64,000 nt of DNA from a bacterium HR37 (GTDB lineage Bacteria; Desulfobacterota_D; UBA1144; Nemesobacterales; CSP1-2), in the NCBI GenBank assembly GCA_002898375.1, contig BEIN01000012.1:3922-67921 (forward strand), given 5' to 3'. A program made the position numbers and the translations under genes. Positions 30,651 through 60,665 of this stretch are shown piece after piece. The number at the start of each line of letters is the position of its first letter. The stretch's first letter is position 1. The notes beneath the pieces were generated by a model that saw only the letters and a list, made by a program, of their open reading frames with translations, made no database searches and was not told the origin of the DNA.

Positions 30651-32513
30651 TTAGGCTCTTTTCCCTTTTAATGCTTTCCTAAGCACAGTAATTGCCAGTA
30701 CAAGTATAGCTACGTTTGCAACTGCTTCTTTTCCATTGTAGGGGGAGGGCGTTGCCAGAGAGCAGCCGCCTCCGTTACTTTCTCTTGTGTCTTCGTTTCG
30801 GTTGTTTTGCTGGTCAACCGATTTTACTGCCTCAAAGGCATCAACCCTGCCAAAGCCAAATACATTGTCAAAACCGGGTTGACCCAGGTCCAGTGCTGTC
30901 TCTCCCAATATCTCTTTAACTCTGCTTGGTTGTAGGGTGGGGTTTTTATCAAGCATAAGTGCAACAACCCCTGCTACATGAGGCGCTGAAGCTGAAGTAC
31001 CAAAAAACGGATTAAAGTCGGTTAAGCTGGTTGAGACCCCATCAGGGGCAACCAAATCTGGCTTTGGTCTTGATTCAAAAAAAGGAAAAAAAATTGTACT
31101 TGGTCCCTGTGAGCTAAACTCTTCAATGGTATCTGGATTCTTTACATAAACGGCACCCACAGCAATAACATTTGATACAGCTGGATGACCATATACGCTG
31201 TCTTCTGGAACATTAAAGTTAACCGGTACCACGGAGCTACTGAAGAACATCTCCAGGGTTTTTGGAACTCCCTTAAAGAGGTTTATAACTATATCAACAC
31301 CACGGAAGTTATCAGAGCTGGTATTTGAAGCAACCGCAAGCTCTATCGGATTATCATCTCCGTTTTGGATTTCAATACCGTAGTCGATAAGCTCACCCGT
31401 TGAGGAATCAAATAGGAAAAGGTCATAATCATTTGAGGACTTGCCAAACTGGTCGTTCCACTGAAGTACACATATTGTGCTCTGTAGAGGAGGAATAAGA
31501 ATCCTCATTGCGGGATTGCTCTCTTGACCAGCTGCTTTGCCAAAGTCATGAACATGTTTTATGTTTTCGTTTATTGCTCCCCCATCTACATACACTGCCT
31601 GATAGTGTTGGTCTGCATCATTGCCTCCAGCTGAAACAAACACCACCCCTTTGCTTACGCTGTTTTGAACCTCCTTTGCTACCCTTCCATCTTCAAAAAA
31701 GGGTTCCTGTAGGAATCCAAGGTCATCTACGATTACATCTACCCCGATACCGGTTAGGAATTTTATCGAATCTATAAAATCTATGTCCGTTAATCCAGAA
31801 GAGAATGCAAGTTGGGCACCAGGAGCTATGTCGTGGATAATCTCTAAAAGAGCTGTTCCCTCGTTTCCCTTTCCCTCAATCCCTATTATTATGTTGTCTG
31901 GTAGCTCCCCTGTTGATTGAGAAACCGCAATTCCATCTACCCCATCTGAGATAACCCCTATAGTTATGCCGCTTCCATCAAACCCGAGTATTTCTCTTAC
32001 ATCGTTTGAGCCAATTACTACATCCCCCTCTGTTACTACCGAGCCGCTTTTTGTTTTTCCGTAGCTTGGTGGGGTTATCTTTCTTACAAAGCCAAGGTTT
32101 GAGATTTCTTCGAGCCTATAAAATGGGGCCCAACCCTGAACTATACCGTACTCACTATTTACCGATTCAACCCTTACCTCCAGGGCTTTTAGTTGTTCTA
32201 GGTATGTATCCTTAATTTCACTTAGGTATATATAGACCTGTATGTTTCCATCTTTGTCTATTTTAACAAGCGGGGTAGATAGTTCTTCTATCTTAAACTC
32301 TCTTAGATTGCTCTTTGTAACCCCCATGGTTTTCAGTTTGGTTAGAACTTTTTGCACATCGTGACTGATTTTAGAGTCTTTGTACTCGATTGTCCCTTCG
32401 TATTTTTTATCTTTTAGCTTGTAGCCCCATGAGACCTCGTTTCCGGTTGCCCTATTGTCTAGGAATAAGGAAGTAAGCAAAACCAGAAAAAAAGTGCTTA
32501 AGACCTTTTTCAT
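30651..32513 (-). CDS. Subtilisin-like serine protease (peptidase S8) with C-terminal GGG-Cys/TM/basic tail
   Basis: Signal peptide, then Asp/His/Ser catalytic blocks (VISDGVDG ... HDFGKAAG ... GTSASAPHVAG). It ends ...GGGCSLATPSP...VANVAILVLAITVLRKALKGKRA. Confidence 0.8.
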   Translation of the reverse strand: MKKVLSTFFLVLLTSLFLDNRATGNEVSWGYKLKDKKYEGTIEYKDSKISHDVQKVLTKLKTMGVTKSNLREFKIEELSTPLVKIDKDGNIQVYIYLSEIKDTYLEQLKALEVRVESVNSEYGIVQGWAPFYRLEEISNLGFVRKITPPSYGKTKSGSVVTEGDVVIGSNDVREILGFDGSGITIGVISDGVDGIAVSQSTGELPDNIIIGIEGKGNEGTALLEIIHDIAPGAQLAFSSGLTDIDFIDSIKFLTGIGVDVIVDDLGFLQEPFFEDGRVAKEVQNSVSKGVVFVSAGGNDADQHYQAVYVDGGAINENIKHVHDFGKAAGQESNPAMRILIPPLQSTICVLQWNDQFGKSSNDYDLFLFDSSTGELIDYGIEIQNGDDNPIELAVASNTSSDNFRGVDIVINLFKGVPKTLEMFFSSSVVPVNFNVPEDSVYGHPAVSNVIAVGAVYVKNPDTIEEFSSQGPSTIFFPFFESRPKPDLVAPDGVSTSLTDFNPFFGTSASAPHVAGVVALMLDKNPTLQPSRVKEILGETALDLGQPGFDNVFGFGRVDAFEAVKSVDQQNNRNEDTRESNGGGCSLATPSPYNGKEAVANVAILVLAITVLRKALKGKRA

Positions 32514-32551: not shown

Positions 32552-33211
32552 TTAAGAAACACTTAGCTTACCTTCGTTTTTTGCAATTATAAATTCACGG
32601 AGCATATCCTGGTGCTCCTTACCAACCTCAATTATTGAAGCCACAGCGTAGGCTCCTGCTCTTAGGTAGGCAGTTACTTCATCTGGGTTTATCGTATCTG
32701 TTGGGATAAGCTTAATTTTGGGAAATAGTTCCCTAAGAAACCCAAGCCAGCCTATCCCTCCCATGGTCTTACATGGAAAGACACTAACTGCGTTTGCCCC
32801 CAAGTCGTAGGCGCTAAATACCTCGGTTGGGGTAAGTGAGCCCGCTGCATGAAACACACTCTCTTTCTTGCTTCTCTTTATAATTCCCTTGTCTAGGTGA
32901 GTTGAGAACAGGAAGAAGGCTCCTGCATTTATTGCAATTCTTGCCTCTTTCTTTGTGGATATGGAAAAAACCCCAAGGTTTTGTTTTCCAGCTCTTTTTA
33001 GGCTTTTAAGGTGTTCTTTTACCCCCTGTGTTTTAAAGTCAAGGGCAATCAGATTAAACCCTCCATCCCTTGCAAGTTGGTATGCTTCTAGCATCTGCTT
33101 AAAAGAGGGTGCTTTAATCAGGAGAAAAACCTTTTCGTCTTCAATAAGATGAAGGAGTTTTTTTTGAATTTCACGTTTAGATGGTTTTTCAACGATCTTC
33201 TTCTTGGACAT
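32552..33211 (-). CDS. KDPG/KHG aldolase (Eda)-like protein
   Basis: C-terminal half resembles the Eda TIM barrel (VSVFPCKTMGGIGWLGFLRELFPKIKLIPTDTI...AYAVAS). The start is set at the Met at 33211, because the ORF-track start at 33304 would overlap tRNA-Ser. Confidence 0.45.
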   Translation of the reverse strand: MSKKKIVEKPSKREIQKKLLHLIEDEKVFLLIKAPSFKQMLEAYQLARDGGFNLIALDFKTQGVKEHLKSLKRAGKQNLGVFSISTKKEARIAINAGAFFLFSTHLDKGIIKRSKKESVFHAAGSLTPTEVFSAYDLGANAVSVFPCKTMGGIGWLGFLRELFPKIKLIPTDTINPDEVTAYLRAGAYAVASIIEVGKEHQDMLREFIIAKNEGKLSVS

Positions 33212-33222
33212 TTCTAACCCTT

Positions 33223-33310
33223 CGGAGGGGGTGGGATTCGAACCCACGAGGGCCTTAAAAACCCTTCCGGTTTTCGAGACCGGTGCCTTCGTCCACTCGG
33301 CCACCCCTCC
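33223..33310 (-). tRNA. tRNA-Ser (anticodon CGA), long variable arm
   Basis: Reverse complement reads GGAGGGGTGGCCGAGTGG...CCGGTCTCGAAAACCGG...GGTTCGAATCCCACCCCCTCCG. The acceptor stem GGAGGGG/CCCCTCC and the long extra arm are typical of a class II tRNA. Confidence 0.85.
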
Positions 33311-33444: not shown

Positions 33445-35985
33445 TTGCGGGTGAGTGCTCTTTTTTCGGAAAAGATAAAAAGGGAAATAGAGAAGACGAT
33501 AAAAGAGGCCTCAGGTAATGAGGTTTTCTTTGTTGGTTCTCTTGATGGTGGCGGTGTTGTTAGCAGTTTAAGGGTTGTTGCTCGTGGTAACGAATTCTCT
33601 GTCCCCGCCATTGTTGATTCTGCCAGCAGCGGGGATGTTGTAATTCACAACCATCCTTCTGGCAACCTGACCCCTTCAGCAAGGGATATCGAGATGGCCT
33701 CTGTATTTGGAAACAGGGGGGTTGGTTTTTACATAGTAAACAACGATGCATCTGAGGTGTATGTGGTTGTTGAGCCGTTTTTAAAACGGGAAGAGAGGGA
33801 GCTTAATACAGAGGAATTAAAGGGGTTATTGCTTCCAGGAGGTGGGGTGGCAAAGGTAATGGGAAGGCAGTTTGAGGAAAGAGCTGAGCAGATACAGATG
33901 TTAGAAGCTGTGGCTTTGGCCTTTAATCAGAGCTCTATTTCCTTAATCGAAGCTGGAACAGGAACGGGTAAAACGCTTGCCTATTTGATACCTGCTGTTT
34001 ACTGGTCTATCTTAAACGGTGAGAGGGTTGTGGTGTCAACAAACACCATTAATCTTCAGGAACAGCTTATTAACAAGGATCTTCCCGTTGTTCAACTTGG
34101 TCTGGGTGATAAGGGGTTTAAGTATTCCCTTGTAAAGGGTATGGCAAATTACGTTTGTCTGCTTAGGGTTGAAACCGTATTGGATGGGCTCTTAGACCTT
34201 GCAGGGGATGATGAGATAGATACTCTAAGAAATATAGTAGAGTGGGCAAAGAGTACACAGGACGGTTCACTTTCTGACCTGAGTTTTAACCCTCCTGAGG
34301 AGGTATGGGATAAGGTCTGTGCTGAAAGTGAGAGTTGCCTTCGTATAAGATGCCCTTACTACTCAAAGTGCTTTTTCTATAAATCAAGACGGGAAATGGC
34401 CTCTTCCAATATCCTTGTCGTTAATCATCATCTTCTGTTTTCGGATCTCTCCATAAAGAGTGCAACCGAGGAGAGTGAGGTAGGGATTCTACCTTCATAT
34501 AGAAGGGTAATTTTCGATGAAGCCCACCATATAGGAGATGCTGCCACATCACATTTTGGATTAAGGGCAAGCAAGTACGGGATTGTAAGGACACTGAGAC
34601 GCCTGAGAAGAAGGGGGGAGAAGGGAGAGATAAAAGGGCTGCTTTTCTATACCGCTTCTCTTGCTACCAAGCTGCAGAAGTATTTTAGAAAGGGGATTTT
34701 AACAAGTGTCCTGGAAAGAATAGAGAGTTTCATATCTCCAAGGGTTGATGTGGTTGAGGAGAGTGCAAGAGATGCCTTTGATAGGCTGTATTTCTTTGCC
34801 CTTCCTTTCTCGGAATTAAAAGAAGGAAATTCGGAGGAAATCACTCTTAGGATAACCCATGAGGTAAGGCAGAAAGAAGGATGGGAAGAGGTGGACAAAA
34901 GGCTTTCTCTTCTCAGAATAAGGTTACGTGAGCTTGAGGAAGAGATAAGATCTTTTGTAGAGGTACTTCTGGACTACGAAAATGAGGATGATGTTGCCAG
35001 AATTATTGCAGAGTATAGGGGAATTGCAAATAAAGTTGGTTTCTATTCGGATGTGATAAATTGCTTCCTGAGCTCTGAGGAAGATGGATACGTAAGGTGG
35101 GTTGAGGGAAGGGCGGGAAAGGGAGGGATAGTCTCTTCCATAGGACTTTCTCCGCTTGATATCTCTTCTCACTTAAAGGAGAGGCTTTATTCCAGGTGTA
35201 AGACAGTGGTTATGACATCTGCCACCATGACTGTTAACGGAAGTTTTTCCTTTCTTAAGGGTGAACTGGGCTTAAGTGATGACAGTAGGGTAAAGGAGTA
35301 TGTGATTTCATCTCCTTTTAACTACTCAGAAAATGTAGTTCTTGCAATCCCAAAGGATGTATCTGAACCTTCTGAGGTTGGATATGCAGAGGATCTATCT
35401 TCTATAATAGTTAGAGCCGTTAAGGCTTCGAGGGGAAATGCTCTTATCTTATTTACTTCTTATTCGCTTCTTGATAAGGTTTACGGTCGTGTATACAGGG
35501 AATTGGAAGACTCTGGGATTCTATGTCTTAGACAGGGTAGCTCCCCCAGAAGCAGGCTACTTGACAGGTTCAGGGTGGAGGATAAATCTGTTCTCTTTGC
35601 TACGGATAGCTTCTGGGAAGGGGTTGATATTCCTGGAGATGCCCTTCGTTTGCTTATAATTACAAGACTACCATTTCGTGTGCCAACTGACCCTATAATA
35701 GAGGCCAGGGTTCAGTATCTGGAAAATCAGGGGATAAACTCTTTTCTGGAGTATACAGTTCCACTGGCTGTCCTTAAGTTTAAGCAGGGATTTGGAAGAC
35801 TTATAAGAACGAAAACAGATAAAGGTGTGGTTATGGTTTTGGACAAGCGAATTATAAGCAAGTACTATGGTAAGTACTTCTTGAATTCGCTTCCAAGGTG
35901 TAGAAGGGTAGTTGGTGGGGTTGAGGAGGTGGTAGATGAGATCTGTGCGTTTTTTAACTCCTTAGCTGGCTGTAACGGAGGATAA
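33445..35985 (+). CDS. Fusion protein: N-terminal RadC-like JAB/MPN domain + DinG/XPD-family Fe-S ATP-dependent DNA helicase
   Basis: Residues ~60-85 contain the JAMM motif H-N-H-P-S-G-x4-P-S-x2-D. Then Walker A (AGTGTGKTLAYL), four Fe-S cysteines (VCAESESCLRIRCPYYSKC), a DEAH box (FDEAHH) and C-terminal helicase motifs. Confidence 0.75.
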   Translation: MRVSALFSEKIKREIEKTIKEASGNEVFFVGSLDGGGVVSSLRVVARGNEFSVPAIVDSASSGDVVIHNHPSGNLTPSARDIEMASVFGNRGVGFYIVNNDASEVYVVVEPFLKREERELNTEELKGLLLPGGGVAKVMGRQFEERAEQIQMLEAVALAFNQSSISLIEAGTGTGKTLAYLIPAVYWSILNGERVVVSTNTINLQEQLINKDLPVVQLGLGDKGFKYSLVKGMANYVCLLRVETVLDGLLDLAGDDEIDTLRNIVEWAKSTQDGSLSDLSFNPPEEVWDKVCAESESCLRIRCPYYSKCFFYKSRREMASSNILVVNHHLLFSDLSIKSATEESEVGILPSYRRVIFDEAHHIGDAATSHFGLRASKYGIVRTLRRLRRRGEKGEIKGLLFYTASLATKLQKYFRKGILTSVLERIESFISPRVDVVEESARDAFDRLYFFALPFSELKEGNSEEITLRITHEVRQKEGWEEVDKRLSLLRIRLRELEEEIRSFVEVLLDYENEDDVARIIAEYRGIANKVGFYSDVINCFLSSEEDGYVRWVEGRAGKGGIVSSIGLSPLDISSHLKERLYSRCKTVVMTSATMTVNGSFSFLKGELGLSDDSRVKEYVISSPFNYSENVVLAIPKDVSEPSEVGYAEDLSSIIVRAVKASRGNALILFTSYSLLDKVYGRVYRELEDSGILCLRQGSSPRSRLLDRFRVEDKSVLFATDSFWEGVDIPGDALRLLIITRLPFRVPTDPIIEARVQYLENQGINSFLEYTVPLAVLKFKQGFGRLIRTKTDKGVVMVLDKRIISKYYGKYFLNSLPRCRRVVGGVEEVVDEICAFFNSLAGCNGG

Positions 35986-35989
35986 ACTG

Positions 35990-36826
35990 TTGGGTCTGGT
36001 AATTAGGAAATCTGCATCTAGGGATTTGGGCTCTATTCTTAGATTTTCTTTTTTCCTGTTTCTGGTGCTGTGTGTAGTAGGGATTCATAAGGTTTATGCC
36101 TATAAGGAGCTTATTGTCCTGGGTAAATGGAGTAGGAAGGGATTAAATGAGCTTCTAAGGGATGCTTCTAGAATTAAAGATACAGGGAAACGAATAGACT
36201 TTTTATCAAAACAGTTCCTTGGAGTGCCTTATAAAGGCCATACCCTTATAGGAAACTTGAATGTCCCCGAGGTGTTTGTTATAAACCTTAAAGAGCTTGA
36301 CTGCTTTACCTATATTGACTATGTGGAGGCTATGAGGCTTTCAAATTCCTTTGACGAGTTTAAAGAGCGGCTAAAGGAGATAAGATACAGGTATGGGTAT
36401 GTGGATTTTAAACACAGAAACCACTTCTTTACAGATTGGATTGTATTCAATAGCAGGTACGTAGATGATGTTACCCGGGAAGTTGGTCGTGAAAAAACAC
36501 GTGTTGTGGATAAGGTCCTTAACAGCAGGGAAGATGGCTCTTTTTTCTTACCCGGGATTTCACCTGTTCTAAGACGTATTTACTATATACCTTCTTACGC
36601 TGTGGATGATGGTGTGGTTGGGAGATTAAAGACGGGTGATTACGTTGGGGTGTACTCGGATAAGCAGGGTCTTGATGTTTCGCATACCGGGATTGTTATA
36701 AAATACGGAAACAAAACCTACTTAAGGCATGCATCATCTAGAAGGGGTATAGGTAGGGTTTTAGATGAGGACTTAAAAAGCTACATATTGGGTAAGCCAG
36801 GACTTGTTGTCATTAGACCAAAATAG
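35990..36826 (+). CDS. DUF1460-like hypothetical protein (N-terminal TM anchor)
   Basis: Domain recall only, so the assignment is weak. Confidence 0.4.
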   Translation: MGLVIRKSASRDLGSILRFSFFLFLVLCVVGIHKVYAYKELIVLGKWSRKGLNELLRDASRIKDTGKRIDFLSKQFLGVPYKGHTLIGNLNVPEVFVINLKELDCFTYIDYVEAMRLSNSFDEFKERLKEIRYRYGYVDFKHRNHFFTDWIVFNSRYVDDVTREVGREKTRVVDKVLNSREDGSFFLPGISPVLRRIYYIPSYAVDDGVVGRLKTGDYVGVYSDKQGLDVSHTGIVIKYGNKTYLRHASSRRGIGRVLDEDLKSYILGKPGLVVIRPK

Positions 36827-37628: not shown

Positions 37629-38024
37629 ATGGCAATTACTCCTCTTCAACTAAACAGCCTTATCACCGAGGCAAGAAAGGCTAGACAGGCCTTGGATAAG
37701 GTTCTGGATTATGCTGATCTTATAAGCAAATACGCAAAGGATTTACCAGATGAGGTGGGAAAGCTAGAGAGTGGAATTAGAGACTGTGCATCAGAAATAG
37801 AGCGACAGATTGAGGAGATTAGATACCATATATATACGGTTCTTAACAGTATGTCTGTTGACCCTGATGAGGTTAAAAACGCAGCCGATAAGCTACTGCT
37901 CTACCAGGGAGATGTCTCCCAGATAATTGAGTGGGTTGAGGAGCAGAAGAGAGGGCATGAGGAAAATTCATACTGGTGGCGGTACTGGCAAGCTGTATCT
38001 GAGGTTCTAAGAAAACGAAAGTAG
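37629..38024 (+). CDS. Hypothetical protein
   Basis: 131-aa ORF with a ribosome-binding site (AAGGAGAGAG). No recognisable domain. Confidence 0.35.
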   Translation: MAITPLQLNSLITEARKARQALDKVLDYADLISKYAKDLPDEVGKLESGIRDCASEIERQIEEIRYHIYTVLNSMSVDPDEVKNAADKLLLYQGDVSQIIEWVEEQKRGHEENSYWWRYWQAVSEVLRKRK

Positions 38025-52755: not shown

Positions 52756-55455
52756 ATGCGTTATTTACTAGGCTTTCTCTCAGGTATAATGATACTCACA
52801 CATTCAATGGAGTACAGGTCGATGGGTATTGAGAGAAGCAAAGATAGGTTTGAAGGTGTAATGTTAGTTGAGGATAAACTTGGTGTTACAAAGCTAAGAC
52901 TTGAGAATGGTCTTACTGTTCTTCTTGAAGAAAACCATTCCGCTCCCGTTGTTTCTGTAAATGTCTGGGTTAAGGTGGGAAGCGTTTGTGAGCAGGAAGG
53001 AGAATATGGGCTTGCCCATGTTCACGAACATATGGTCTTTAAGGGAACGGAGAAGAGAAGCGTTGGGGAGATAGCAAGGGTTATTGAGGGTGATGGAGGC
53101 GATATAAACGCTTTTACCTCCTTTACACAGACCGTCTATTATGTAACCATAGCCAGCAGGTTTCTTGATACGGCACTCGATGTCCTTTCAGATGCTATGG
53201 GCAATGCCACTTTTGATGCAGGTGAGCTCAGGAAAGAGCTTGAGGTTATACTTGAGGAGATAAGGCGGGGTGAGGATATTCCCTCAAGGGTACTCAGTGA
53301 GAGGTTGTTTGCAGAGGCCTACAGGGTTCATCCTTTTAGAAGACCGATTATAGGAACCAGGGAAAGCGTTAGCAGTTTTACCCGTGAAAAGGTACTCAAT
53401 TTCTATAGAAAGTGGTATTCACCAAACAATATGGTGCTTGTTGTGGTTGGTGATTTTGATACCGGTAAGGTTATACCAAAGATAAAAGAGATGTTTGGAA
53501 CTCTAAAACCAAAGCCTGTTCCCGATTGCAGGGTTCCACAGGAACCACCTCAAAATGAGCTAAGACCGTTTGTGTTTGATAAGGCTGTCCAGGAAGGATA
53601 CTTTTCCCTTGCCTTTCATATTCCGGATGTAAGACATGAGGATTCTCCGGTTCTAGATGTAATAGCACACATACTTGGTGGTGGAGAAAGCTCAAGACTC
53701 TACAGGAGAGTAAAGGAGGATAAGGGGCTTGTAACAAGAATCTACAGCTATTCGTTTACCCCAAAGTATCCCGGTCTCTTTGTTGTTGGTGGAACGCTTG
53801 ATCCCGACAAAGCCAGTAGTGCTCTCTCTGAAATCCTTAAGGAAACATACCGTTTAAAATACGAACCTGTTAGCCTGGAAGAACTTTCAAGAGCAAAGGT
53901 TAACATAGAAAGTGAGTCCATATATTCTAAGGAGACAGTACAGGGACAGGCTCAGAAATTGGGATATTACGAGGTTGAAGCTGGTGATTACAAGTATGAA
54001 AGTGAGTACCTGTGGAGAATATCACAGGTTACACAGGAAGATATAATAAGGGTTGCCAGAAAGTATTTTAAGAACACCAACCTTACAGCTGGTTTTCTGT
54101 TACCTACCGGACAGCAAACGATAAAGGAAGAGGATATAGTTGAGATTGCGCGTTCTTCTTCAGAGGCAATTGAGAGGGAGTTTAAAGCCTTATTGGTGTC
54201 TCCATCAAGTGAGGTAAAGAGGGTTGTTCTAGAAAACGGTATTACCGTCCTTATAAAGGAGAACCATTCTGTTCCGCTTTTTGCTGCCCGTGCTGTTTTT
54301 CTAGGAGGAACCAGATTCGAAGACGAAAAAACAAACGGTATCTTTAACTTCTTATCCGAGATGTTTACACGTGGCACCGAAAAAAGAAGCACTGAGGACA
54401 TTGCACGTGAGATAGAATCAATTGCAGGTGAGGTAAGTGGTTTCTCCGGAAGGAATAGCTTTGGTGTGACTGTAGAGGCTCTTAGCAGAAACTTCGATAA
54501 GGCCATGGATATATTTGCAGATGTTATACTCAATCCGTCCTTTAAACCTGAGGAGGTTGAGCGGGCACGAAGGGACATACTATCCGATATAAACCGTGAA
54601 GCGGATAACCCGGTAAAGGTAGCTGTAAATCTCTTCCTGGAAACCTTATATAAGAAGCACCCATACAGGTTTAATATCCTTGGTACCAAGGACACTGTAA
54701 GCAGGATAACAAGGGATGAGTTGGTTTCTTTCTACAGAAGGTATGTCCGTCCAGAAAACATGGTTATAGCTGTTGTAGGAGATGTTGGGGAAAAAGATGT
54801 ATTGAGTGTGGTGGATAAGTATTTTAAACACATGGAAAAGGGTCATTTTAAACCTCCTGCAGTAAGCCCTGAGCCACCTCCAGATAGTGTAAGGGTAGGG
54901 GTAGTTAAACAGAAGGACAAGGCTCAAACCCATATAATACTTGGTTTTCAGGCACCCACTATTAAAGACCCTGATCAGTATCCTTTTGAGGTTTTAAATG
55001 CGGTTCTTGCAGGTCAGGGAGGAAGGCTTTTTATAGAGCTTAGAGATAAAAGAAGCCTTGCTTACTCTGTTACTTCTTTTCTTAACTTTGGGCTGGAGCC
55101 GGGTTTCTTTGGAGTCTACATAGGGTGTGCTCCGGAAAAAGAAGAAGAGGCTATCTCCGGTATAAAAGAGCAGCTCTCTTTGATTCTAAAAGAAGGTATT
55201 ACTCCAGATGAGTTAAAACGTGCTCAGAACTACCTTGTAGGAAACTTTGAAATAGGTCTTCAGCAGAACTCCTCTCAGGCTGCAAAAATCGCCTTTGATG
55301 AGCTCTATGGAGTAGGATGGGATGAATACAAGAAGTATCCGGAGAAGATATACTCGGTAACTAGAGAAGATGTACTTAGAGTAGCAAGAAAGTATATAGA
55401 CCTCAACAAATATGCTATTGCTATAGTGAGACCGGAAGAAGAGGGAAATCTCTGA
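52756..55455 (+). CDS. M16-family zinc peptidase (tandem M16 units, pitrilysin-like)
   Basis: Inverted zinc motif HVHEHMVFKGT near the N-terminus and a second inactive-type M16 repeat in the C-terminal half. 899 aa. Confidence 0.8.
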   Translation: MRYLLGFLSGIMILTHSMEYRSMGIERSKDRFEGVMLVEDKLGVTKLRLENGLTVLLEENHSAPVVSVNVWVKVGSVCEQEGEYGLAHVHEHMVFKGTEKRSVGEIARVIEGDGGDINAFTSFTQTVYYVTIASRFLDTALDVLSDAMGNATFDAGELRKELEVILEEIRRGEDIPSRVLSERLFAEAYRVHPFRRPIIGTRESVSSFTREKVLNFYRKWYSPNNMVLVVVGDFDTGKVIPKIKEMFGTLKPKPVPDCRVPQEPPQNELRPFVFDKAVQEGYFSLAFHIPDVRHEDSPVLDVIAHILGGGESSRLYRRVKEDKGLVTRIYSYSFTPKYPGLFVVGGTLDPDKASSALSEILKETYRLKYEPVSLEELSRAKVNIESESIYSKETVQGQAQKLGYYEVEAGDYKYESEYLWRISQVTQEDIIRVARKYFKNTNLTAGFLLPTGQQTIKEEDIVEIARSSSEAIEREFKALLVSPSSEVKRVVLENGITVLIKENHSVPLFAARAVFLGGTRFEDEKTNGIFNFLSEMFTRGTEKRSTEDIAREIESIAGEVSGFSGRNSFGVTVEALSRNFDKAMDIFADVILNPSFKPEEVERARRDILSDINREADNPVKVAVNLFLETLYKKHPYRFNILGTKDTVSRITRDELVSFYRRYVRPENMVIAVVGDVGEKDVLSVVDKYFKHMEKGHFKPPAVSPEPPPDSVRVGVVKQKDKAQTHIILGFQAPTIKDPDQYPFEVLNAVLAGQGGRLFIELRDKRSLAYSVTSFLNFGLEPGFFGVYIGCAPEKEEEAISGIKEQLSLILKEGITPDELKRAQNYLVGNFEIGLQQNSSQAAKIAFDELYGVGWDEYKKYPEKIYSVTREDVLRVARKYIDLNKYAIAIVRPEEEGNL

Positions 55456-55458
55456 TTC

Positions 55459-55734
55459 TTACACAACGATTACATCATCTTGTAGTACCCTCTTTACTGT
55501 TCCAAGCCTCTCAATCTTTTGAAGGCATCTGGGACAGAGTTCATAGAAGATTACGCTGTCTTCTTTTTTTATTATCTTCTCAACCTTTCTTTTCATTATA
55601 AGCAGGTTTGTATCACTAAGCCTACATTCAAAGACGCTTAGTTGCACAGGGGTTCCAAAACCCTCAAGGGTTTTAAACAGTTTTAACCTCCTCTTATCAT
55701 CTGTTATGTCGTAGGCAAGAACTATGTTTCTCAT
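55459..55734 (-). CDS. cas2: CRISPR-associated endoribonuclease Cas2
   Basis: 91 aa with the Cas2 pattern (LVLAYDITDDKRR.K..K.L..FG..VQ.SVFEC). It lies directly downstream of the cas4-cas1 fusion gene. Confidence 0.85.
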   Translation of the reverse strand: MRNIVLAYDITDDKRRLKLFKTLEGFGTPVQLSVFECRLSDTNLLIMKRKVEKIIKKEDSVIFYELCPRCLQKIERLGTVKRVLQDDVIVV

Positions 55735-57347
55735 CTAAGTGCAAAGGGTATGTATTCCTCTATCTCTCCCTTTATGAACTTGGCAAGGAGCCTTGCTTGT
55801 ATCTCAAATGCCCTGCGATAGCTTACCCGGTACTCAAAGATAGGATGCAGTATCTCAGATTGAATTTTTCCTATATAGGCCTTAAAGAAGGTTTCTCTAC
55901 CCTTTTCCTGTATGTATATGCCACCGAATCTTTCTTTAAAATCCTCTTTTGTAAACATGTTTCTGTTAAGAACGGATAAAACAAGTGAGTCCACTATTAC
56001 CGGACGAAACTCCTCCATCAGATCAAGTGCAAGGGCTGGTCTTCCATATCTTGTGGAGTGAAGAAAACCAATGTAGGGGTCAAACCCCACGGTGGATACG
56101 GTTGATATAAAATTACCCACAAGAAGACTATATCCGAAGCTAAGAAGGGCATTTACCGGGTCTCTAGGTGGTCGTTTTGTTCTCTTCTCAAAATCAAAGT
56201 CAAGCTTTGGTTTTAATAGCTTTCCAAATACTCTAAAGTAGTCTCTTGTTGCAATCCCTTCAAGACCAAGGAGTTCTTCTTTATCTCCTGCATCGGGTAT
56301 CCTGGTAATAACATTTTTAATCCGAATGCATGCTTCATCTATCTCTCTGTCCCCAAATTCCCTGTTTTGTCTTAGTAGAAGAGTTCGCATGTTAAGTAGC
56401 TTTCCCTTTACAAAGGACTTTGATACCTCTAGGGTAAAATCCCTGTCTATATGTCTTCTGTACTGCTCGATCCTCAAAAGAGAGTTTTTGTTCTCTTCGG
56501 GAACAAATTTACCCTCAAATCTACCGAATGTGGATTGATATACTATATCAACATTAAGCCTTAGGAGGAACTTTAGGGCTTGTGTGGATATGTTTGCGTT
56601 TGCTGATATAATTAACTGCCTAAGATAAGAGGCGGGTATCTCTGTTATAACTTTTCCGTCTTTAGTAACCGTAATCTTCCCTCCTCTCTTACCGATATAA
56701 GCACCGTGTTCGTCCACATAGAGGACTCTTCCGGTGTTGAGTTCGGTTATAATGCGTTTTGGTTTTTCCCCTTTTTCCTTAATAAACCTGGTTTCAAAGG
56801 GAAGGCATACAGAAAGCAGAGAACAACCATGACATCGTGTGTCTGCAACGGGTTCAGGGATCTCACCTCTGTAGAGTATTTCCCTGGCTTTATCTATTGC
56901 CTCAATGGATTTGTTTCTGAGTTCCTGACTAAATTCTACCCTTCTTCTTACCCTAGATGAGTAGTAGTATATGTATCCATATTGAACCGTTTTCCCCACG
57001 TGTTCTTCTAAAAGAAGTGCCTCAAGACAGAGTTGAACATCGTCTGAAAGGCTCTCCTTTAGGTATCCCCTTTTATACTCTATTGGGTAGATTTCTCCGT
57101 CATTTTCAACAGCATCAAGAACCCCAATTATACCAAGCCTTTCAGAAGAGAGGGTTATTTCTTTAACCTGTAGTTTTTCCTGTGTTCTAAGCCTTTCTCT
57201 TTCTTTTCTCTTCTCATCCTTAATGTTTCCTTCCACTACAAATCTGTTTACTGTGTTTTCTCCTTCGCATGCCCGATAGTAAAAGTTTCTTGGACAGAAT
57301 ACAAGCTCTGCAACCAGTGATACCGGTATAAGCTCATCCCACATCAT
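55731..57347 (-). CDS. cas1: Cas4-Cas1 fusion protein
   Basis: N-terminal Cas4/RecB nuclease with one N-proximal Cys (FCPRNF) and a C-x2-C-x5-C cluster (CHGCSLLSVC). The C-terminal ~340 aa form a Cas1 integrase fold (GRVLYVDEHGAYIGKRGGKITV...). Confidence 0.85.
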   Translation of the reverse strand: MMWDELIPVSLVAELVFCPRNFYYRACEGENTVNRFVVEGNIKDEKRKERERLRTQEKLQVKEITLSSERLGIIGVLDAVENDGEIYPIEYKRGYLKESLSDDVQLCLEALLLEEHVGKTVQYGYIYYYSSRVRRRVEFSQELRNKSIEAIDKAREILYRGEIPEPVADTRCHGCSLLSVCLPFETRFIKEKGEKPKRIITELNTGRVLYVDEHGAYIGKRGGKITVTKDGKVITEIPASYLRQLIISANANISTQALKFLLRLNVDIVYQSTFGRFEGKFVPEENKNSLLRIEQYRRHIDRDFTLEVSKSFVKGKLLNMRTLLLRQNREFGDREIDEACIRIKNVITRIPDAGDKEELLGLEGIATRDYFRVFGKLLKPKLDFDFEKRTKRPPRDPVNALLSFGYSLLVGNFISTVSTVGFDPYIGFLHSTRYGRPALALDLMEEFRPVIVDSLVLSVLNRNMFTKEDFKERFGGIYIQEKGRETFFKAYIGKIQSEILHPIFEYRVSYRRAFEIQARLLAKFIKGEIEEYIPFALR

Positions 57348-57958
57348 GACTCTCTGTATGTTCTTTTTACAGAAGGTATTTTTGAGTATCTGCCTTTCTC
57401 AAAGTGAAATAGCTCAATATTGTAGTGTGATAGCCCTATAAGCTGTCCTAACTGAAACCCAAGAACAACTGGCATTGATAGAAACAGTTGAATTTTTGGG
57501 CCCTTGTGTACGGTGTTTATTGTTCTAACAAAGTTCCACACCCTTTTTGCAATTGTGGGAAAAGCGGTTAGTGGTATCTCTTCTACATGGGAGATCAGGT
57601 ATTCTACGGGTCTTTCAAGCTGTATTCTTACGTCTTCTTCAATCTTTCTGGAGAATTCTACAACAAGTGTTATATCGTTTTCCAAAGCAGCTTTTTTAAT
57701 GTAGTTGTTTATCGCCGTTATATCGTTGTTTTGGATGAACTCTTTATAAGCACACATAAGGTCGTTTCCAAGCTCTCCTTTAAGTGATATCAAGGGTAAG
57801 GAGGGTGTTTTATCTCTGGTGTTGGTATCTTTTTTCTGATTCGCCAAGGATAGAGAACCTCTTCTTCTCACTCCTTTATTTACAGCAATCTGTATGACTT
57901 TCCCAAAGATAAGTCCAGAGACGCTTTCCAGTAAGGAGGTTGCAAGTATCTCAATCAT
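57344..57958 (-). CDS. Unassigned cas-locus protein (204 aa), translationally coupled to cas4-cas1
   Basis: Its stop overlaps the cas4-cas1 ATG (ATGA). The first ~26 aa are hydrophobic and the C-terminus carries a Gly/Leu-rich motif (LSMPVVLGFQLGQLIG). No family recognised. Confidence 0.4.
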   Translation of the reverse strand: MIEILATSLLESVSGLIFGKVIQIAVNKGVRRRGSLSLANQKKDTNTRDKTPSLPLISLKGELGNDLMCAYKEFIQNNDITAINNYIKKAALENDITLVVEFSRKIEEDVRIQLERPVEYLISHVEEIPLTAFPTIAKRVWNFVRTINTVHKGPKIQLFLSMPVVLGFQLGQLIGLSHYNIELFHFEKGRYSKIPSVKRTYRES

Positions 57959-58056
57959 GGTAAACGTTTTTTTCTCTTTTGGGTAATCTTAAAACAGTTA
58001 GGGATTTGGTTAAAGGTAGAGCAACCTTTCAGAAATATTTCAGATTATTTGGTTAG

Positions 58057-59139
58057 CTAAGTAAGGACTACAGGCCTTATCTTGCTTCTGTCAATGTGAA
58101 TTCCGTATCTTGTATGGCCATAAACTCTTTTTTGCCCTAATGGGGTTATTTTGTAATATATTGCTATCTTTTTATCATCAAGGGCATTTTCTATAGCCCT
58201 GTTAATCTTACTTATATCCTGGAGTAGATTCTCTGTAGAGAATTTATATCTTCTGAGATCAGCATCTGGTATCATGCTTTTTATATAAGACTTAATATCA
58301 TCCAGGTTGTTTTTTATCGAGTGTGTTCCTTTAAGTGCCTGAAAGCACTCTTCTTCGCTCATGTTAAGTCTTCTCTGTACGAAGTAGGTGTATAGAGCCA
58401 GGAGTTTGGGATTTAGTTTTATTTCCCTATTTCCAATTAGCAATCTCCTATTTTTGAGATCAACTTGAAGGGAGTACAGTGAGGGGCTTATATCTATTTC
58501 CCTCTGGGCTATCTTAACCAGTTCACTGAACGAGAATTTTTCAGAACCAAACAGATTGTCTAGCTTCCCTCTTAACCTTACGTAAGGAATCTCAGCTAGG
58601 TGAATGGGTGCTTTTTCTCTTCTTGATTTTGATGGATAAAAGAAGCTCTTGTTCTGTTCCAGTTTTTCATCTACAAGGACATGTGAGAGAGTATCTTCCT
58701 TTCTTCCAAACAGCATAAGGGCATAGGCAAGGTAGATAGACATTGTTTTTCTTCCTCCTGCAATGGAGCAGTGAAGAATGACATCTGGATCTTTTGTCTT
58801 TTCTTTTATAAACTCTGTAATCTGGTCCGCAACCAGCTCATTATCTTTTACGGTGCGTATATCCTTAAGTGGTTTTCCTTTTGAGTCTTTAAGCAGTATT
58901 ATGGAATCTTCACCAAATTGGATTGATGATGGAGTTATACCATATTCTTTACAGAATGATAAAAGCATCTTTTTGTTGATGAGTTTATCTACAACCTCTT
59001 TTTTCCCGTTTAAAGTTGTTATGACAATGATTCTTGATATTCTGGCAGGAGGTTTCTTTATTTGGGTAAGGTAGTATAGTGTTTCTGTTATAACTTGAGG
59101 ATTAAGTCCAGCAACTGCGACGAGTATTTCCTCTTTCAT
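58057..59139 (-). CDS. CARF-domain protein with C-terminal wHTH-like region (Csa3/Csx1-like sensor, no HEPN motif)
   Basis: N-terminal Rossmann-like CARF motifs (ILVAVAGLNPQVITETLYYL ... ILHCSIAGGRKTMS). The C-terminal stretch (KLNPKLLALYTYFVQRR...) looks like a winged helix. No R-x4-6-H found. Confidence 0.55.
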   Translation of the reverse strand: MKEEILVAVAGLNPQVITETLYYLTQIKKPPARISRIIVITTLNGKKEVVDKLINKKMLLSFCKEYGITPSSIQFGEDSIILLKDSKGKPLKDIRTVKDNELVADQITEFIKEKTKDPDVILHCSIAGGRKTMSIYLAYALMLFGRKEDTLSHVLVDEKLEQNKSFFYPSKSRREKAPIHLAEIPYVRLRGKLDNLFGSEKFSFSELVKIAQREIDISPSLYSLQVDLKNRRLLIGNREIKLNPKLLALYTYFVQRRLNMSEEECFQALKGTHSIKNNLDDIKSYIKSMIPDADLRRYKFSTENLLQDISKINRAIENALDDKKIAIYYKITPLGQKRVYGHTRYGIHIDRSKIRPVVLT

Positions 59140-59465
59140 CGTTTTCTTTTAACCTTAGTCTGAACCTTTCTCTGTTCTACTATATTTAAACCAGAAAGAT
59201 AACTCATTCAACCTGTAAATACTATTATGTATAACCTTAAATTTTACCTCTTCTTTTCTAAACCAAGCCCGTTTAAATTCCAAGAAAAACATGATCAAGC
59301 ACTCTCTCTATACCCGAGCTGAATGCTGAAGCCTTTCTATGCATTTAAACTGTTATACCTGTTGCAACAGGTATATAGGTTCAAACCGTCAAGTAGTATA
59401 TAGGATTTCAACTTATTTTATAGGTTCCCGTATCAGGTTTGATAAGACTGATATTGCATAAATGC

Positions 59466-59633
59466 TTAAAGCGTTATTCGTCCTCTCCCAAAAATAAGAG
59501 ATATTACAAATAAGACCAGGAAAAGTATAAATAGAATCTTTGCAATACCTGCTGCGGTGCCTGCAATACCACTGAATCCTAAAACTCCTGCGACCAATGC
59601 TATAATTAAAAAAACTGCTGCCCATCCCAGCAT
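59466..59633 (-). CDS. UPF0391/DUF1328-family small membrane protein (55 aa), not in ORF track
   Basis: ATG with ribosome-binding site GGAGGTAGG. Translation [55 protein letters not shown] matches the conserved YtjA-like pattern (GFSGIAG.A..IAKILF). Confidence 0.55.
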
Positions 59634-59844
59634 TTATCCTACCTCCTTTTTATTACCCGAAAGCGGGTTTAACCCGTTTTATACATAAACCTCTTCCTAT
59701 AGTCTCACGAATAGTTCCTCCTGTCAATAAAAATTTGCTCTCCAATGGGTCTGTGTTTGTTAAAATAAGCTTTTTACCTTAATGAGGACTGTGAATATTT
59801 CCCAAAGGAATTACAACCTGAAGCAAATGTACCCTTTGGTGAGA

Positions 59845-60665
59845 TGTGAAATTCCCTACGGGAATTAGAGGTATTTCTACAAGTGATAATCTCCACTTCC
59901 TACCTCTGGAGACTGCAAAAGGGGCGTTTCAATTCCCTACGGGAATTAGAGGTATTTCTACCTGGTAAGAGACTTTGTGTCTTTTGTTGGTTCTACTACC
60001 ACTCATGTTTCAATTCCCTACGGGAATTAGAGGTATTTCTACGTAGAACTGGTACGTGAGAAAGTAACAATTCCAACGAAGTTTCAATTCCCTACGGGAA
60101 TTAGAGGTATTTCTACCCACGTCATACCTTTGAGGTGGCTCACGATATTATTGTTTCAATTCCCTACGGGAATTAGAGGTATTTCTACAAAGACTGTCAA
60201 CAAACCAGAACCTTCTCCACTCCTTAACAACGAGTTTCAATTCCCTACGGGAATTAGAGGTATTTCTACGAAATACTAACTGTTTCTCTAGTCCGTGTAT
60301 TATCACCAACTTATGACAAGAGTTTCAATTCCCTACGGGAATTAGAGGTATTTCTACGGAACAATAATGCTACCTGTCTGCCTTGACCTTACAAGTTTCA
60401 ATTCCCTACGGGAATTAGAGGTATTTCTACCGTATCACCCTACGGAGAACAATATCCGCTTGCTTGACTGTTTCAATTCCCTACGGGAATTAGAGGTATT
60501 TCTACTAGTCAAAACAAGAGGGCTAACATACGAACAGGCAAGGGAGATCCTGTTTCAATTCCCTACGGGAATTAGAGGTATTTCTACTTGCCTGTCTTGG
60601 TACTAAAGTCAGTGATGATGTATGGAAATGTTTCAATTCCCTACGGGAATTAGAGGTATTTCTAC
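59845..60665 (-). CRISPR. CRISPR array: 11 x 36-nt repeats, consensus on + strand GTTTCAATTCCCTACGGGAATTAGAGGTATTTCTAC, 10 spacers of 36-52 nt
   Basis: Repeat starts are 59845 (degenerate: ATGTGA instead of GTTTCA), 59926, 60007, 60081, 60153, 60234, 60322, 60395, 60470, 60552 and 60630. Spacer lengths are 45, 45, 38, 36, 45, 52, 37, 39, 46 and 42 nt. The internal palindrome is TTCCCTACGGGAA. The strand is inferred: on the minus strand the repeat ends ...ATTGAAAC, the classic Cas6 8-nt handle, and the degenerate repeat is at the low-coordinate (distal) end. Confidence 0.95.

What the first reader, a model, noticed from the sequence alone, without database searches (positions are those of the whole stretch)
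33445..35985. RadC-type JAB/MPN domain fused to a DinG/XPD-family Fe-S helicase
The N-terminal ~115 aa carry an exact JAMM motif (HNHPSGNLTPSARD, that is H-x-H-x7-S-x2-D) as found in RadC. The remainder is a complete DinG-like helicase with Walker A, four Fe-S cysteines, a DEAH box and C-terminal motifs. I do not recall this fusion as a described architecture. In B. subtilis DinG the fused domain is a DnaQ-like exonuclease. A JAB domain here could act as a nuclease or peptidase module in DNA repair.
Basis: partly seen in the sequence, partly recalled or inferred. Interest (0 to 1): 0.55.

Follow-up and report, generated by a model that had tools for sequence, protein, structure and literature searches.

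The report
Known RadC-JAB–DinG helicase fusion gene
This is a real, intact gene that joins a small zinc-hydrolase (RadC/JAB) domain to a DinG-type iron-sulfur DNA helicase, but the fusion was described in 2011 and named "RadC-like DinG" in 2025, so the architecture is not new; only its biochemical function remains untested.

Summary
ORF 33445-35985 (+) encodes 846 aa. It has an N-terminal RadC-type JAB domain with E26 and H68-x-H70-x7-S78-x2-D81. The rest is a complete XPD/DinG-type helicase: Walker A at 171-177, four Fe-S cysteines (238, 298, 303, 309), DEAH at 358-361 and Helicase_C_2 at 655-818.

It is not a misassembly. The same single-ORF architecture occurs in 70 of the 80 best loci, out of at least 474 species genomes that encode this JAB subtype. 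It also occurs in 73 of the 150 best 50%-identity cluster representatives; most of the other 77 look like fragments. The spacing from the JAMM motif to Walker A is fixed at 87-89 residues.

The novelty claim fails. Iyer et al. 2011 (PMC3239186) described RadC-JAB fused to DinG/Rad3 helicases and inferred a nuclease role. Cheng 2025 (PMC11981726) defined the subgroup "RadC-like DinG" and noted that no experiments exist. The protein itself is in GenBank as GBD39305.1 (bacterium HR37).

The context is housekeeping. No partner gene is conserved across phyla, and the type III CRISPR locus about 20 kb away is unrelated.

The best reading is a 5'-3' repair helicase that delivers DNA, or a DNA-bound adduct, to an active Zn hydrolase. 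Whether that hydrolase is a nuclease or a peptidase is unresolved.

Interest is low (0.25) and the novelty rating is "already known".

The parts
33445..35985 (+). Complete RadC-like DinG gene, 846 aa including stop. TTG start at 33445; alternative GTG start at 33451.
   Evidence: 100% identical to GBD39305.1, 'putative ATP-dependent helicase DinG [bacterium HR37]'.
33445..33780 (+). N-terminal RadC-type JAB/MPN+ domain (aa 1-112): alpha1-beta1-beta2-beta3-alpha-beta4-beta5.
   Evidence: Pfam PF04002 above the gathering cutoff. AF2 model pLDDT 93.8. Foldseek top hit is RadC 2qlc, followed by JAMM isopeptidases. The family profile against PDB sequences hits 2qlc at 6.5e-7.
33520..33522 (+). Codon for E26, the predicted general-base Glu of the JAMM site (GNEVFF).
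   Evidence: Invariant in 35 diverse homologues. One Asp substitution among 16 close homologues.
33646..33687 (+). JAMM motif H68-N-H70-P-S-G-N-L-T-P-S78-A-R-D81 (Zn ligands H, H, D; Ser78).
   Evidence: H68, N69, H70, P71, P77, S78 and D81 are invariant. The exact motif is present in 148/150 cluster representatives.
33781..33864 (+). Linker between JAB and helicase (aa 113-140). The length is tightly constrained.
   Evidence: Distance from JAMM-D to Walker A is 87-89 residues in all loci measured.
33955..33975 (+). Walker A / helicase motif I, GTGTGKT (aa 171-177).
   Evidence: Invariant in alignment A1.
34156..34371 (+). Fe-S domain with four cysteine ligands: C238, C298, C303, C309.
   Evidence: All four are invariant in A1. 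They align to the Fe-S cysteines of E. coli DinG in the 6fwr alignment. Actual cluster binding is not tested.
34516..34527 (+). DEAH box / Walker B (aa 358-361).
34627..35079 (+). Probable Arch domain: long helical insertion, about aa 395-545.
   Evidence: Helices 395-542 in the whole-protein model, which has low confidence. The assignment is by analogy to the XPD/DinG architecture and is inferred.
35407..35898 (+). Helicase C-terminal motor domain (Pfam Helicase_C_2, aa 655-818).
   Evidence: E = 1.4e-48. Aligns to E. coli DinG residues 418-688.

Best explanation
The gene encodes a typical member of the already described but experimentally uncharacterised 'RadC-like DinG' subgroup. It is a chromosomal housekeeping DNA-repair or fork-maintenance enzyme. 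An XPD/DinG-type [4Fe-4S] superfamily-2 helicase core, close to YoaA and to the helicase part of ExoDinG, translocates 5'-3' on single-stranded DNA. That polarity is inferred from family membership. The N-terminal RadC-type JAB domain is a catalytically competent Zn2+ hydrolase held at a fixed distance from the motor, and it acts on what the helicase threads or runs into. I commit to coupled helicase-hydrolase processing of damaged or blocked DNA. [quoted passage not shown] Hydrolysis of a peptide or amide bond in a protein or adduct attached to DNA comes a close second, at about 0.30. Shown here: the domain identities, the intact catalytic residues, conservation of the fusion, and the housekeeping context. 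Inferred: helicase polarity, Fe-S and Zn binding, the repair role, and the hydrolase substrate. The confidence of 0.7 applies to the identity plus the general coupled helicase-hydrolase model. Family membership alone is about 0.95, and the specific nuclease chemistry about 0.35.
For: Identity. Pfam RadC, DEAD, ResIII and Helicase_C_2 all match. YoaA and DinG models align over the full helicase (550.6 and 526.6 bits), and the ExoDinG models align only from position about 250, so the JAB sits in the exonuclease slot. E. coli DinG 6fwr matches at 3e-47 and ExoDinG 8zef at 2e-44.

Active JAB. E26, H68, H70, S78 and D81 are invariant in 35 homologues of 42-64% identity. The exact HxHx7Sx2D motif is in 148/150 representatives. 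The domain is one of the best-conserved stretches of the 16-sequence alignment. The fold model is confident, and its nearest solved structure is RadC 2qlc.

Real and selected fusion. There are more than 100 full-length homologues at 63-74% identity. Of the 150 best 50%-cluster representatives, 73 are at least 780 aa, and the JAB is N-terminal in nearly all of them. At least 474 species genomes encode the JAB subtype, and 70 of the 80 best loci carry a single ORF of at least 780 aa, in Dadabacteria, Thermodesulfobacteriota, Geobacteraceae, Hydrogenedentota, KSB1, Nitrospinota, Acidimicrobiia, Spirochaetia and Calditrichota. The JAB-to-Walker A spacing is 87-89 aa.

Repair context elsewhere. In KSB1, Calditrichota and related MAGs the gene lies immediately downstream of, or overlaps, a homologue of the ligase-associated DNA-damage-response exonuclease, on the same strand. 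In three of those loci uvrA lies upstream.

Literature. Iyer 2011 made the same nuclease inference by domain displacement, and Cheng 2025 named the subgroup.
Confidence: 0.7

Rival explanations
1. The JAB domain is a peptidase or amidase, not a nuclease. The helicase translocates along ssDNA until it meets a covalently or tightly bound protein or peptide adduct (a DNA-protein crosslink or roadblock). It presents or unfolds that adduct for cleavage by the JAMM site. This would be a one-polypeptide analogue of eukaryotic FANCJ (an XPD-family helicase) working with the SPRTN metalloprotease.
Against: According to Iyer et al., RadC-clade JABs lack the groove that holds the ubiquitin tail. No Ubl, E1-like or other peptidase-substrate gene is linked to it. 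No paper connects RadC with DNA-protein crosslinks. In other DinG subgroups the accessory domains are nucleases or nuclease-derived: Exo, pseudo-Exo, Endo and HNH.
Confidence: 0.3
2. The JAB domain is non-catalytic. It would be a structural, DNA-binding or autoregulatory module of the helicase, as proposed for some fusobacterial copies that have lost the Zn ligands.
For: Iyer 2011 noted inactive versions in certain fusobacteria. Pseudo-exonuclease DinGs (pExoDinG) set a precedent for degenerate N-terminal domains.
Against: Here, and in 148 of 150 representatives, the catalytic motif is exact. E, H, H, S and D are invariant at 42-64% overall identity. The acidic pI argues against a DNA-binding role.
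Confidence: 0.07
3. The helicase is a defence protein of the CasDinG or other anti-phage DinG kind, linked to the CRISPR locus in the same window.
For: A generic PADLOC 'typeIV_DinG, CAS-IV-A associated' model matches the helicase core (433.7 bits). A CRISPR array and cas genes lie at 55.7-64 kb.
Against: That CRISPR-Cas locus is type III (Csm5, Cas6, Csm6-like CARF, SAVED, Cas4/Cas1). It is about 20 kb away, with housekeeping genes such as CysS in the part of the interval I annotated. The Csf4 equivalog model scores 116.8 against a cutoff of 400. No csf genes are adjacent. All four Fe-S cysteines are kept, whereas CasDinG has lost them. The gene keeps chromosomal synteny (tRNA-Ser, aldolase, S8, RNase R) across Dadabacteria.
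Confidence: 0.02
4. The fusion is an artefact: a frameshift or misassembly joining a separate RadC gene to a DinG gene.
For: A few relatives appear split. L082 has an in-frame TAG after the JAB domain. L081, at 93% identity, is broken into four ORFs.
Against: Independent assemblies from many phyla give the same single ORF, with an identical 87-89 aa spacing between the JAMM motif and Walker A. L081's neighbouring genes are also fragmented, so that assembly is error-prone. In L082 the helicase continues in the same frame after the stop.
Confidence: 0.01

Closest known systems
RadC-like DinG subgroup (Cheng 2025, PMC11981726 section 3.8; first noted by Iyer, Zhang, Rogozin & Aravind 2011, PMC3239186)
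   Same: Same architecture: N-terminal RadC-type JAB with conserved E, H, H, D, followed by a YoaA-like MD1/FeS(CCCC)/Arch/MD2 helicase. Chromosomal, single polypeptide of about 840 aa. Five-stranded minimal JAB fold.
   Different: Nothing architectural. The lineage (bacterium HR37, nearest to Candidatus Dadabacteria) is not among the phyla that Iyer et al. 2011 list, and I did not open Table S1 of the 2025 review. My survey adds Dadabacteria, Hydrogenedentota, KSB1, Nitrospinota, Nitrospirales, Acidimicrobiia, Calditrichota and Acidobacteria.
ExoDinG (Bacillus/Staphylococcus DinG with an N-terminal DnaQ-like 3'-5' exonuclease; PDB 8zef; NCBIfam PRK08074, TIGR01407)
   Same: The helicase core is homologous over its full length (526.6 bits; aa 138-836 align to model positions 251-928). 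An accessory hydrolase sits at the same N-terminal position.
   Different: The accessory domain is a JAB/MPN+ Zn hydrolase of the deaminase-like fold, not an RNase H-fold DEDD exonuclease. The score is below the equivalog cutoff of 789.
YoaA (E. coli DinG paralogue that binds HolC/chi; NCBIfam NF053712)
   Same: Best-scoring helicase model (550.6 bits). Fe-S helicase of similar size. According to the 2025 review, the predicted structures are very similar.
   Different: Below the cutoff of 680. YoaA has no N-terminal domain. According to the review, organisms with RadC-like DinG lack HolC; this could not be checked for this genome.
Canonical RadC (YicR; HhH + JAB; PDB 2qlc; PF04002)
   Same: JAB domain of the same Pfam family, with the same HNHPSG...PS..D signature. 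2qlc is the closest solved structure by both sequence profile and fold.
   Different: There is no HhH domain. Full-length RadC models fail (19-23 bits against cutoffs of 134-180). The JAB forms a separate subfamily: a phmmer search of 1.84 billion representatives returned only 608 hits at E <= 0.001, and the 150 I could inspect are fusion-type proteins or their fragments, none with a canonical RadC layout.
JAMM/MPN+ isopeptidases (AfJAMM, PfJAMM1, Rpn11, AMSH, BubCD)
   Same: Same fold and the same E...HxHx7Sx2D Zn site.
   Different: A minimal domain of about 110 aa with no room for the Ins-1/Ins-2 ubiquitin-binding insertions. No ubiquitin-like or E1-like genes are linked. It is fused to a DNA helicase.

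Membership tests
RadC-like DinG | N-terminal RadC-type JAB domain | tested here: met
   PF04002 scores 26.2 bits (whole protein) and 31.4 bits (domain), against a cutoff of 22.1. 35/35 diverse family members hit PF04002. RadC 2qlc is the top hit by sequence profile and by fold.
RadC-like DinG | Conserved putative catalytic centre E / H / H / D (plus Ser) in the JAB domain | tested here: met
   E26, H68, H70, S78 and D81 are present and invariant. The exact motif is in 148/150 representatives.
RadC-like DinG | DinG/XPD-type SF2 motor domains (Walker A, DEAH, Helicase_C_2) | tested here: met
RadC-like DinG | FeS domain with a CCCC motif between Walker A and DEAH | tested here: met
   C238, C298, C303 and C309 are invariant and align to the Fe-S cysteines of E. 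coli DinG. Actual cluster binding cannot be tested here.
RadC-like DinG | Arch domain inserted in MD1 | tested here: inconclusive
   A helical insertion at about aa 395-545 is present, but the whole-protein model has a mean pLDDT of only 59.5.
RadC-like DinG | JAB and helicase in one polypeptide, conserved across taxa | tested here: met
RadC-like DinG | Host genome lacks HolC (chi), as reported for carriers | not testable with these tools
YoaA (NF053712 equivalog) | Score at or above the curated cutoff; no N-terminal accessory domain | tested here: not met
   550.6 bits against a cutoff of 680, and a JAB domain is present.
ExoDinG (PRK08074 / TIGR01407 / PRK07246) | N-terminal DnaQ-like exonuclease domain and a score above the cutoff | tested here: not met
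   526.6 against 789 and 383 against 547.7. The alignments start at model positions 251 and 242, so there is no exonuclease domain.
E. coli-type DinG (PRK11747) | Score at or above the curated cutoff | tested here: not met
   422.2 bits against a cutoff of 598.
CasDinG / Csf4 (type IV CRISPR) | Csf4 equivalog score, adjacent csf genes and array, degenerate FeS domain | tested here: not met
   TIGR03117 scores 116.8 against 400. The neighbours are housekeeping genes. The four cysteines are kept. The only CRISPR locus in the window is type III, about 20 kb away.
Canonical RadC (TIGR00608 / PRK00024) | HhH + JAB two-domain protein of about 220 aa scoring above the cutoff | tested here: not met
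   19 bits against 133.85 and 23.3 bits against 180; only the JAMM-motif stretch (aa 56-86) aligns to these full-length models, and there is no HhH domain. Membership holds only at the JAB-domain level.
JAMM/MPN+ (iso)peptidases | E...HxHx7Sx2D Zn site on an MPN fold | tested here: met
JAMM/MPN+ (iso)peptidases | Functional link to a ubiquitin-like substrate (adjacent Ubl/E1-like genes, Ub-binding insertions) | tested here: not met
   No such genes are found within +/-5 kb in the window or recur in the 80 loci. The domain is a minimal MPN core of about 110 aa. Peptidase activity itself is not testable here.

The most novel reading that the evidence does not exclude
RadC-like DinG is a self-contained bacterial helicase-protease for DNA-protein crosslinks or protein roadblocks. 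The Fe-S helicase tracks 5'-3' along the damaged strand and feeds the attached protein or peptide to the JAMM site. This would mirror eukaryotic FANCJ plus SPRTN, and it would finally give the RadC clade of JAB domains a biochemical function. Nothing in my data excludes this. The intact peptidase-type site, the isopeptidase structural neighbours, the acidic JAB domain and the separately encoded exonuclease in some lineages all fit it.
Probability: 0.25. Interest if true: 0.7.

Novelty: already known. Interest (0 to 1): 0.25.

Why it matters
The architecture is not a discovery. It has been in the literature since 2011, is a named DinG subgroup since 2025, is visible in precomputed Pfam annotations, and this very protein is in GenBank. 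What remains open is the function of the RadC clade of JAB domains, one of the most widespread bacterial domains with no demonstrated activity. The DinG fusion is arguably the cleanest handle on that question, because the helicase fixes the substrate context to ssDNA. This survey adds four practical points. First, the catalytic site is under strong purifying selection across many phyla. Second, the JAB-to-helicase spacing is fixed. Third, cultured and possibly genetically tractable carriers exist (Geomonas spp., Citrifermentans bremense, Marispirochaeta). Fourth, some lineages place the gene in an apparent operon with a DNA-damage-response exonuclease homologue, with uvrA close upstream in three of them, which supports a repair role. 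These points help in designing experiments, but they do not make this window's gene remarkable.

Tried and rejected
1. Whole-protein AlphaFold2 with a 16-sequence alignment failed once. The rerun gave a mean pLDDT of 59.5. That is too poor to place the JAB site relative to the DNA channel, so no inter-domain claim is made.

3. The search for homologous proteins with the JAB domain alone returned mostly contig-end fragments. The three long-contig 'stand-alone' candidates all proved uninformative. P0121 lies in a frameshifted assembly. P0152 is separated from its helicase only by an in-frame TAG. P0143 lies at the end of a fragmented contig.

4. The first search for related loci attempt, with a 35-sequence alignment, found no usable conserved stretch. 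A 7-sequence alignment worked.

5. The search for a conserved partner gene found only clade-level synteny: RNase R, S8 and aldolase in Dadabacteria; chromate-transporter-like and two-component genes in Geobacterales; a beta-CASP exonuclease in KSB1 and Calditrichota. Nothing is conserved across phyla, and none of the window's downstream genes recur.

6. Aligning the upstream regions of Dadabacteria relatives showed the conserved tRNA-Ser but no palindrome or shared operator in the window's 134-nt intergenic region. An SOS/LexA link is therefore unsupported.

7. The defence or CRISPR link was considered and rejected.

8. Literature searches for any functional test of RadC-DinG, or any link between RadC and DNA-protein crosslinks, found none.
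Full report
**Observation**

One search lists an ORF at exactly 33445..35985 on the + strand, 846 aa, starting with TTG. A GTG two codons downstream (33451) is an equally plausible start, because members of the same 90%-identity cluster are annotated at 844 aa. A tRNA-Ser(CGA) lies at 33223-33310 on the opposite strand, followed by a 134-nt intergenic region.

The protein carries HNHPSGNLTPSARD at residues 68-81, an exact HxHx7Sx2D motif. The upstream Glu of JAMM enzymes is E26, in GNEVFF. The helicase part has Walker A GTGTGKT (171-177), DEAH (358-361) and four cysteines (238, 298, 303, 309). C238 aligns to DinG C120, and the other three to the three cysteines of its Fe-S region, in the PDB 6fwr alignment. 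A fifth cysteine, C292, is not conserved.

The bare JAMM regular expression is only moderately improbable. It occurs in 14 of 20000 shuffles of this protein. It matches three times in the six-frame translation of the window, and two of those matches lie in stop-ridden frames. The motif alone would therefore be weak evidence.

The profile, structural and conservation evidence is decisive:
- Pfam RadC (PF04002) scores 26.2 bits in the whole protein and 31.4 bits on the isolated domain, against a gathering cutoff of 22.1.
- A profile of the domain family hits the RadC crystal structure 2qlc at E = 6.5e-7.
- An AlphaFold2 model of residues 1-125 has pLDDT 93.8. Its best PDB matches are RadC 2qlc, then the JAMM isopeptidases BubCD, AfJAMM, the Caldiarchaeum Rpn11 homologue, PfJAMM1 and AMSH.

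**Is the fusion real?**

Yes. The protein is 100% identical to GenBank GBD39305.1, 'putative ATP-dependent helicase DinG [bacterium HR37]'. HR37 is an unclassified bacterium in the NCBI taxonomy.

More than 100 full-length homologues of 63-74% identity share the PF04002-plus-helicase architecture. Most are labelled Candidatus Dadabacteria, or 'Deltaproteobacteria' or Thermodesulfobacteriota MAGs.

A phmmer search with the JAB domain alone, against 1.84 billion cluster representatives, found 608 proteins at E <= 0.001 and 425 at E <= 1e-10. In nearly all of the 150 best the JAB is at the N-terminus. Seventy-three of them are at least 780 aa. Most of the rest look like fragments that break off in the linker or in the helicase N-terminus.

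A scan of one genome per species, using the pattern [DE]VVIHNHP, found at least 474 genomes that encode a relative. In the 80 best loci:
- 70 carry a single ORF of at least 780 aa.
- The others run off a contig end or contain an internal stop.
- 79 of the 80 show a helicase Walker A after the JAB; the one exception (L031) runs off its contig after 159 aa.

The distance from the JAMM Asp to Walker A is 87-89 residues in every case. This rules out misassembly. It also shows that the two modules are held in a fixed geometric relationship.

**Is the JAB site functional?**

Across 35 homologues of 42-64% identity, the invariant residues of the domain are E26, G48, H68, N69, H70, P71, P77, S78 and D81. 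That is the complete JAMM catalytic set plus the RadC-clade HNHP signature. The exact motif is present in 148 of 150 representatives, and the other two carry an insertion inside it. The domain is also one of the best-conserved stretches of the 16-sequence alignment. This pattern is that of an active enzyme, not a degenerate module.

The domain is consistently acidic: median pI is 4.9 and none of the 35 is above 7.

**What the helicase is**

- The best NCBIfam models are YoaA (550.6 bits, cutoff 680) and Bacillus-type ExoDinG PRK08074 (526.6 bits, cutoff 789).
- E. coli DinG PRK11747 scores 422.2 bits against a cutoff of 598.
- The type IV CRISPR model Csf4 scores only 116.8 bits against a cutoff of 400.
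- The protein is therefore a member of none of these equivalogs, but it is clearly a DinG/XPD-family Fe-S helicase.
- The ExoDinG models align only from positions 251 and 242 onward. The JAB domain thus sits exactly where ExoDinG has its DnaQ-like exonuclease.

**Context**

In the window the neighbours are, in order: RNase R (+), an S8 subtilase (-), a KDPG/KHG aldolase (-), tRNA-Ser (-), the gene itself, an AmiA-like gene 4 nt downstream (+), a SAM methyltransferase, a 131-aa ORF with no family, an LLM oxidoreductase, a radical SAM protein and CysS.

The upstream genes are syntenic only within Dadabacteria, and the downstream genes recur in none of the 80 loci. Clustering all flanking ORFs showed only clade-level synteny.

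One clade-level neighbour is informative. In seven loci (KSB1, Calditrichota and unclassified MAGs), a gene of about 320 aa with an MBL/beta-CASP fold lies upstream on the same strand. In four of them it ends 3-6 nt before the fusion ORF or overlaps it by 4 nt; in three the gap is about 70-120 nt. The two metagenome contigs L082 and L083 have an RMMBL-domain gene upstream as well. Its best match is the 'ligase-associated DNA damage response exonuclease' TIGR04122 (242.7 bits over its full length, cutoff 325). In three of these loci uvrA lies upstream. This supports a DNA-repair role for the family, although it is not evidence from this window.

A generic PADLOC type IV DinG model matches the helicase core. 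The only CRISPR-Cas locus in the window is type III and lies about 20 kb away. No csf genes are adjacent. The four Fe-S cysteines are retained, whereas CasDinG has lost them. A defence role is therefore rejected.

**Comparison with the literature**

The fusion is not new.
[quoted passage not shown] They noted that these helicases are closely related to versions carrying a 3'-5' exonuclease in place of the JAB. By non-homologous domain displacement, they concluded that the JAB might be a nuclease.
- The same group repeated this in 2017. They added that RadC-type JABs probably lack the ubiquitin-tail groove.
- My further searches found no functional study.

**Mechanism**

Shown: an intact JAMM site, an intact Fe-S helicase, a selected and rigid fusion, and a housekeeping chromosomal location. 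Inferred from family knowledge: 5'-3' translocation on ssDNA, a [4Fe-4S] cluster and Zn2+ in the JAB site.

I commit to a coupled helicase-hydrolase that processes damaged or blocked DNA. For the chemistry, two readings are nearly tied.
- Nuclease or nucleic-acid processing, about 0.35. It rests on positional equivalence with the exonuclease of ExoDinG, which I verified through the model alignments, and on the DNA-linked fusion partners of other RadC domains.
- Peptidase or amidase, about 0.30. The domain would act on proteins or adducts attached to DNA. This reading rests on chemical precedent, because all characterised JAMM enzymes hydrolyse (iso)peptide bonds. It also rests on the invariant Ser78, the structural neighbours, and the separate exonuclease gene in some lineages. 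It would resemble the eukaryotic cooperation of the XPD-family helicase FANCJ with the SPRTN protease, which I recall from memory and did not check here.

A non-catalytic role is unlikely, at about 0.07.

**Verdict**

The novelty claim is not supported. The gene is a typical member of a described but uncharacterised family. Interest is 0.25 and the novelty rating is 'already known'.

Noticed in passing
window 55731-64000 (array 59843-60675): A type III CRISPR-Cas locus in a low-GC stretch (0.36-0.40). The array has at least 11 copies of a 36-nt repeat, GTTTCAATTCCCTACGGGAATTAGAGGTATTTCTAC. Around it lie a Cas4/Cas1 fusion (55731-57347, -), a small SAVED-like protein (57344-57958, -), a Csm6-like CARF protein (58057-59139, -), a CARF/ring-nuclease-like protein (60969-62090, -), Cas6 (62087-62896, -) and Csm5 (62896-63927, -). 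The locus runs off the window end.
   Followed up: partly
loci L023, L034, L037, L040, L042, L062, L070 (just upstream of the fusion gene); also L082, L083: In KSB1, Calditrichota and unclassified MAGs the RadC-like DinG gene is preceded, on the same strand, by a ~320-aa MBL/beta-CASP gene. In four loci that gene ends 3-6 nt before the fusion ORF or overlaps it by 4 nt. It is most similar to the ligase-associated DNA-damage-response exonuclease TIGR04122 (242.7 bits, cutoff 325). uvrA lies upstream in L023, L037 and L062. I did not find this association mentioned in the papers read.
   Followed up: partly
all 80 loci and the window, aa 81-171 of the protein: The spacing between the JAMM Asp and the helicase Walker A is 87-89 residues in every homologue measured, across many phyla. 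The JAB domain is always acidic (median pI 4.9). Together these suggest a rigid docked arrangement rather than a flexible tether.
   Followed up: partly
L082 4001-6565: One relative has an in-frame TAG right after the JAB domain (VVEPF*KKEK...). The helicase continues in the same reading frame and was called as a separate 717-aa gene. This could be a nonsense mutation, a sequencing error or a real split gene.
   Followed up: partly
L081 (JGI 3300066320, 102-kb contig): The closest relative outside the 90% cluster (93% identity in the JAB) has the gene broken into four ORFs. The neighbouring aldolase is split as well. Synteny with the window is otherwise identical (RNase R, S8, aldolase). This looks like an error-prone assembly.
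   Followed up: yes
window 32552-33304 (-) and 33223-33310 (-): The 250-aa ORF listed for the KDPG/KHG aldolase runs through tRNA-Ser(CGA), so its true start must lie downstream of the tRNA. The tRNA-Ser immediately upstream of the helicase gene is conserved in most Dadabacteria relatives.
   Followed up: partly
window 33445 vs 33451: The start codon is ambiguous. TTG at 33445 gives 846 aa, as in GBD39305.1. GTG at 33451 gives 844 aa, as in several members of the same 90% cluster.
   Followed up: partly
window 30651-32513 (-): The S8 subtilase ends in ...NGGGCSLATPSPYNGKEAVANVAILVLAITVLRKALKGKRA: a Gly-rich/Cys motif, then a hydrophobic helix and a basic tail. This resembles a C-terminal sorting signal of the GlyGly-CTERM kind, but no NCBIfam sorting-domain model matched.
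   Followed up: no
window 35990-36826 (+): An AmiA-like (PF07313) gene starts 4 nt after the helicase stop codon, so it is probably co-transcribed. This adjacency recurs in none of the 80 related loci.
   Followed up: yes
window 37629-38024 (+): A 131-aa ORF has no Pfam, NCBIfam or PADLOC family and no homologue in the related loci.
   Followed up: no
window 52756-55455 (+): An 899-aa protein looks like a fusion of two M16-type peptidase halves. It matches the EF-P modification-associated YfmH-like model (N-terminal half) and the YfmF-like model (C-terminal half), both below their cutoffs.
   Followed up: no
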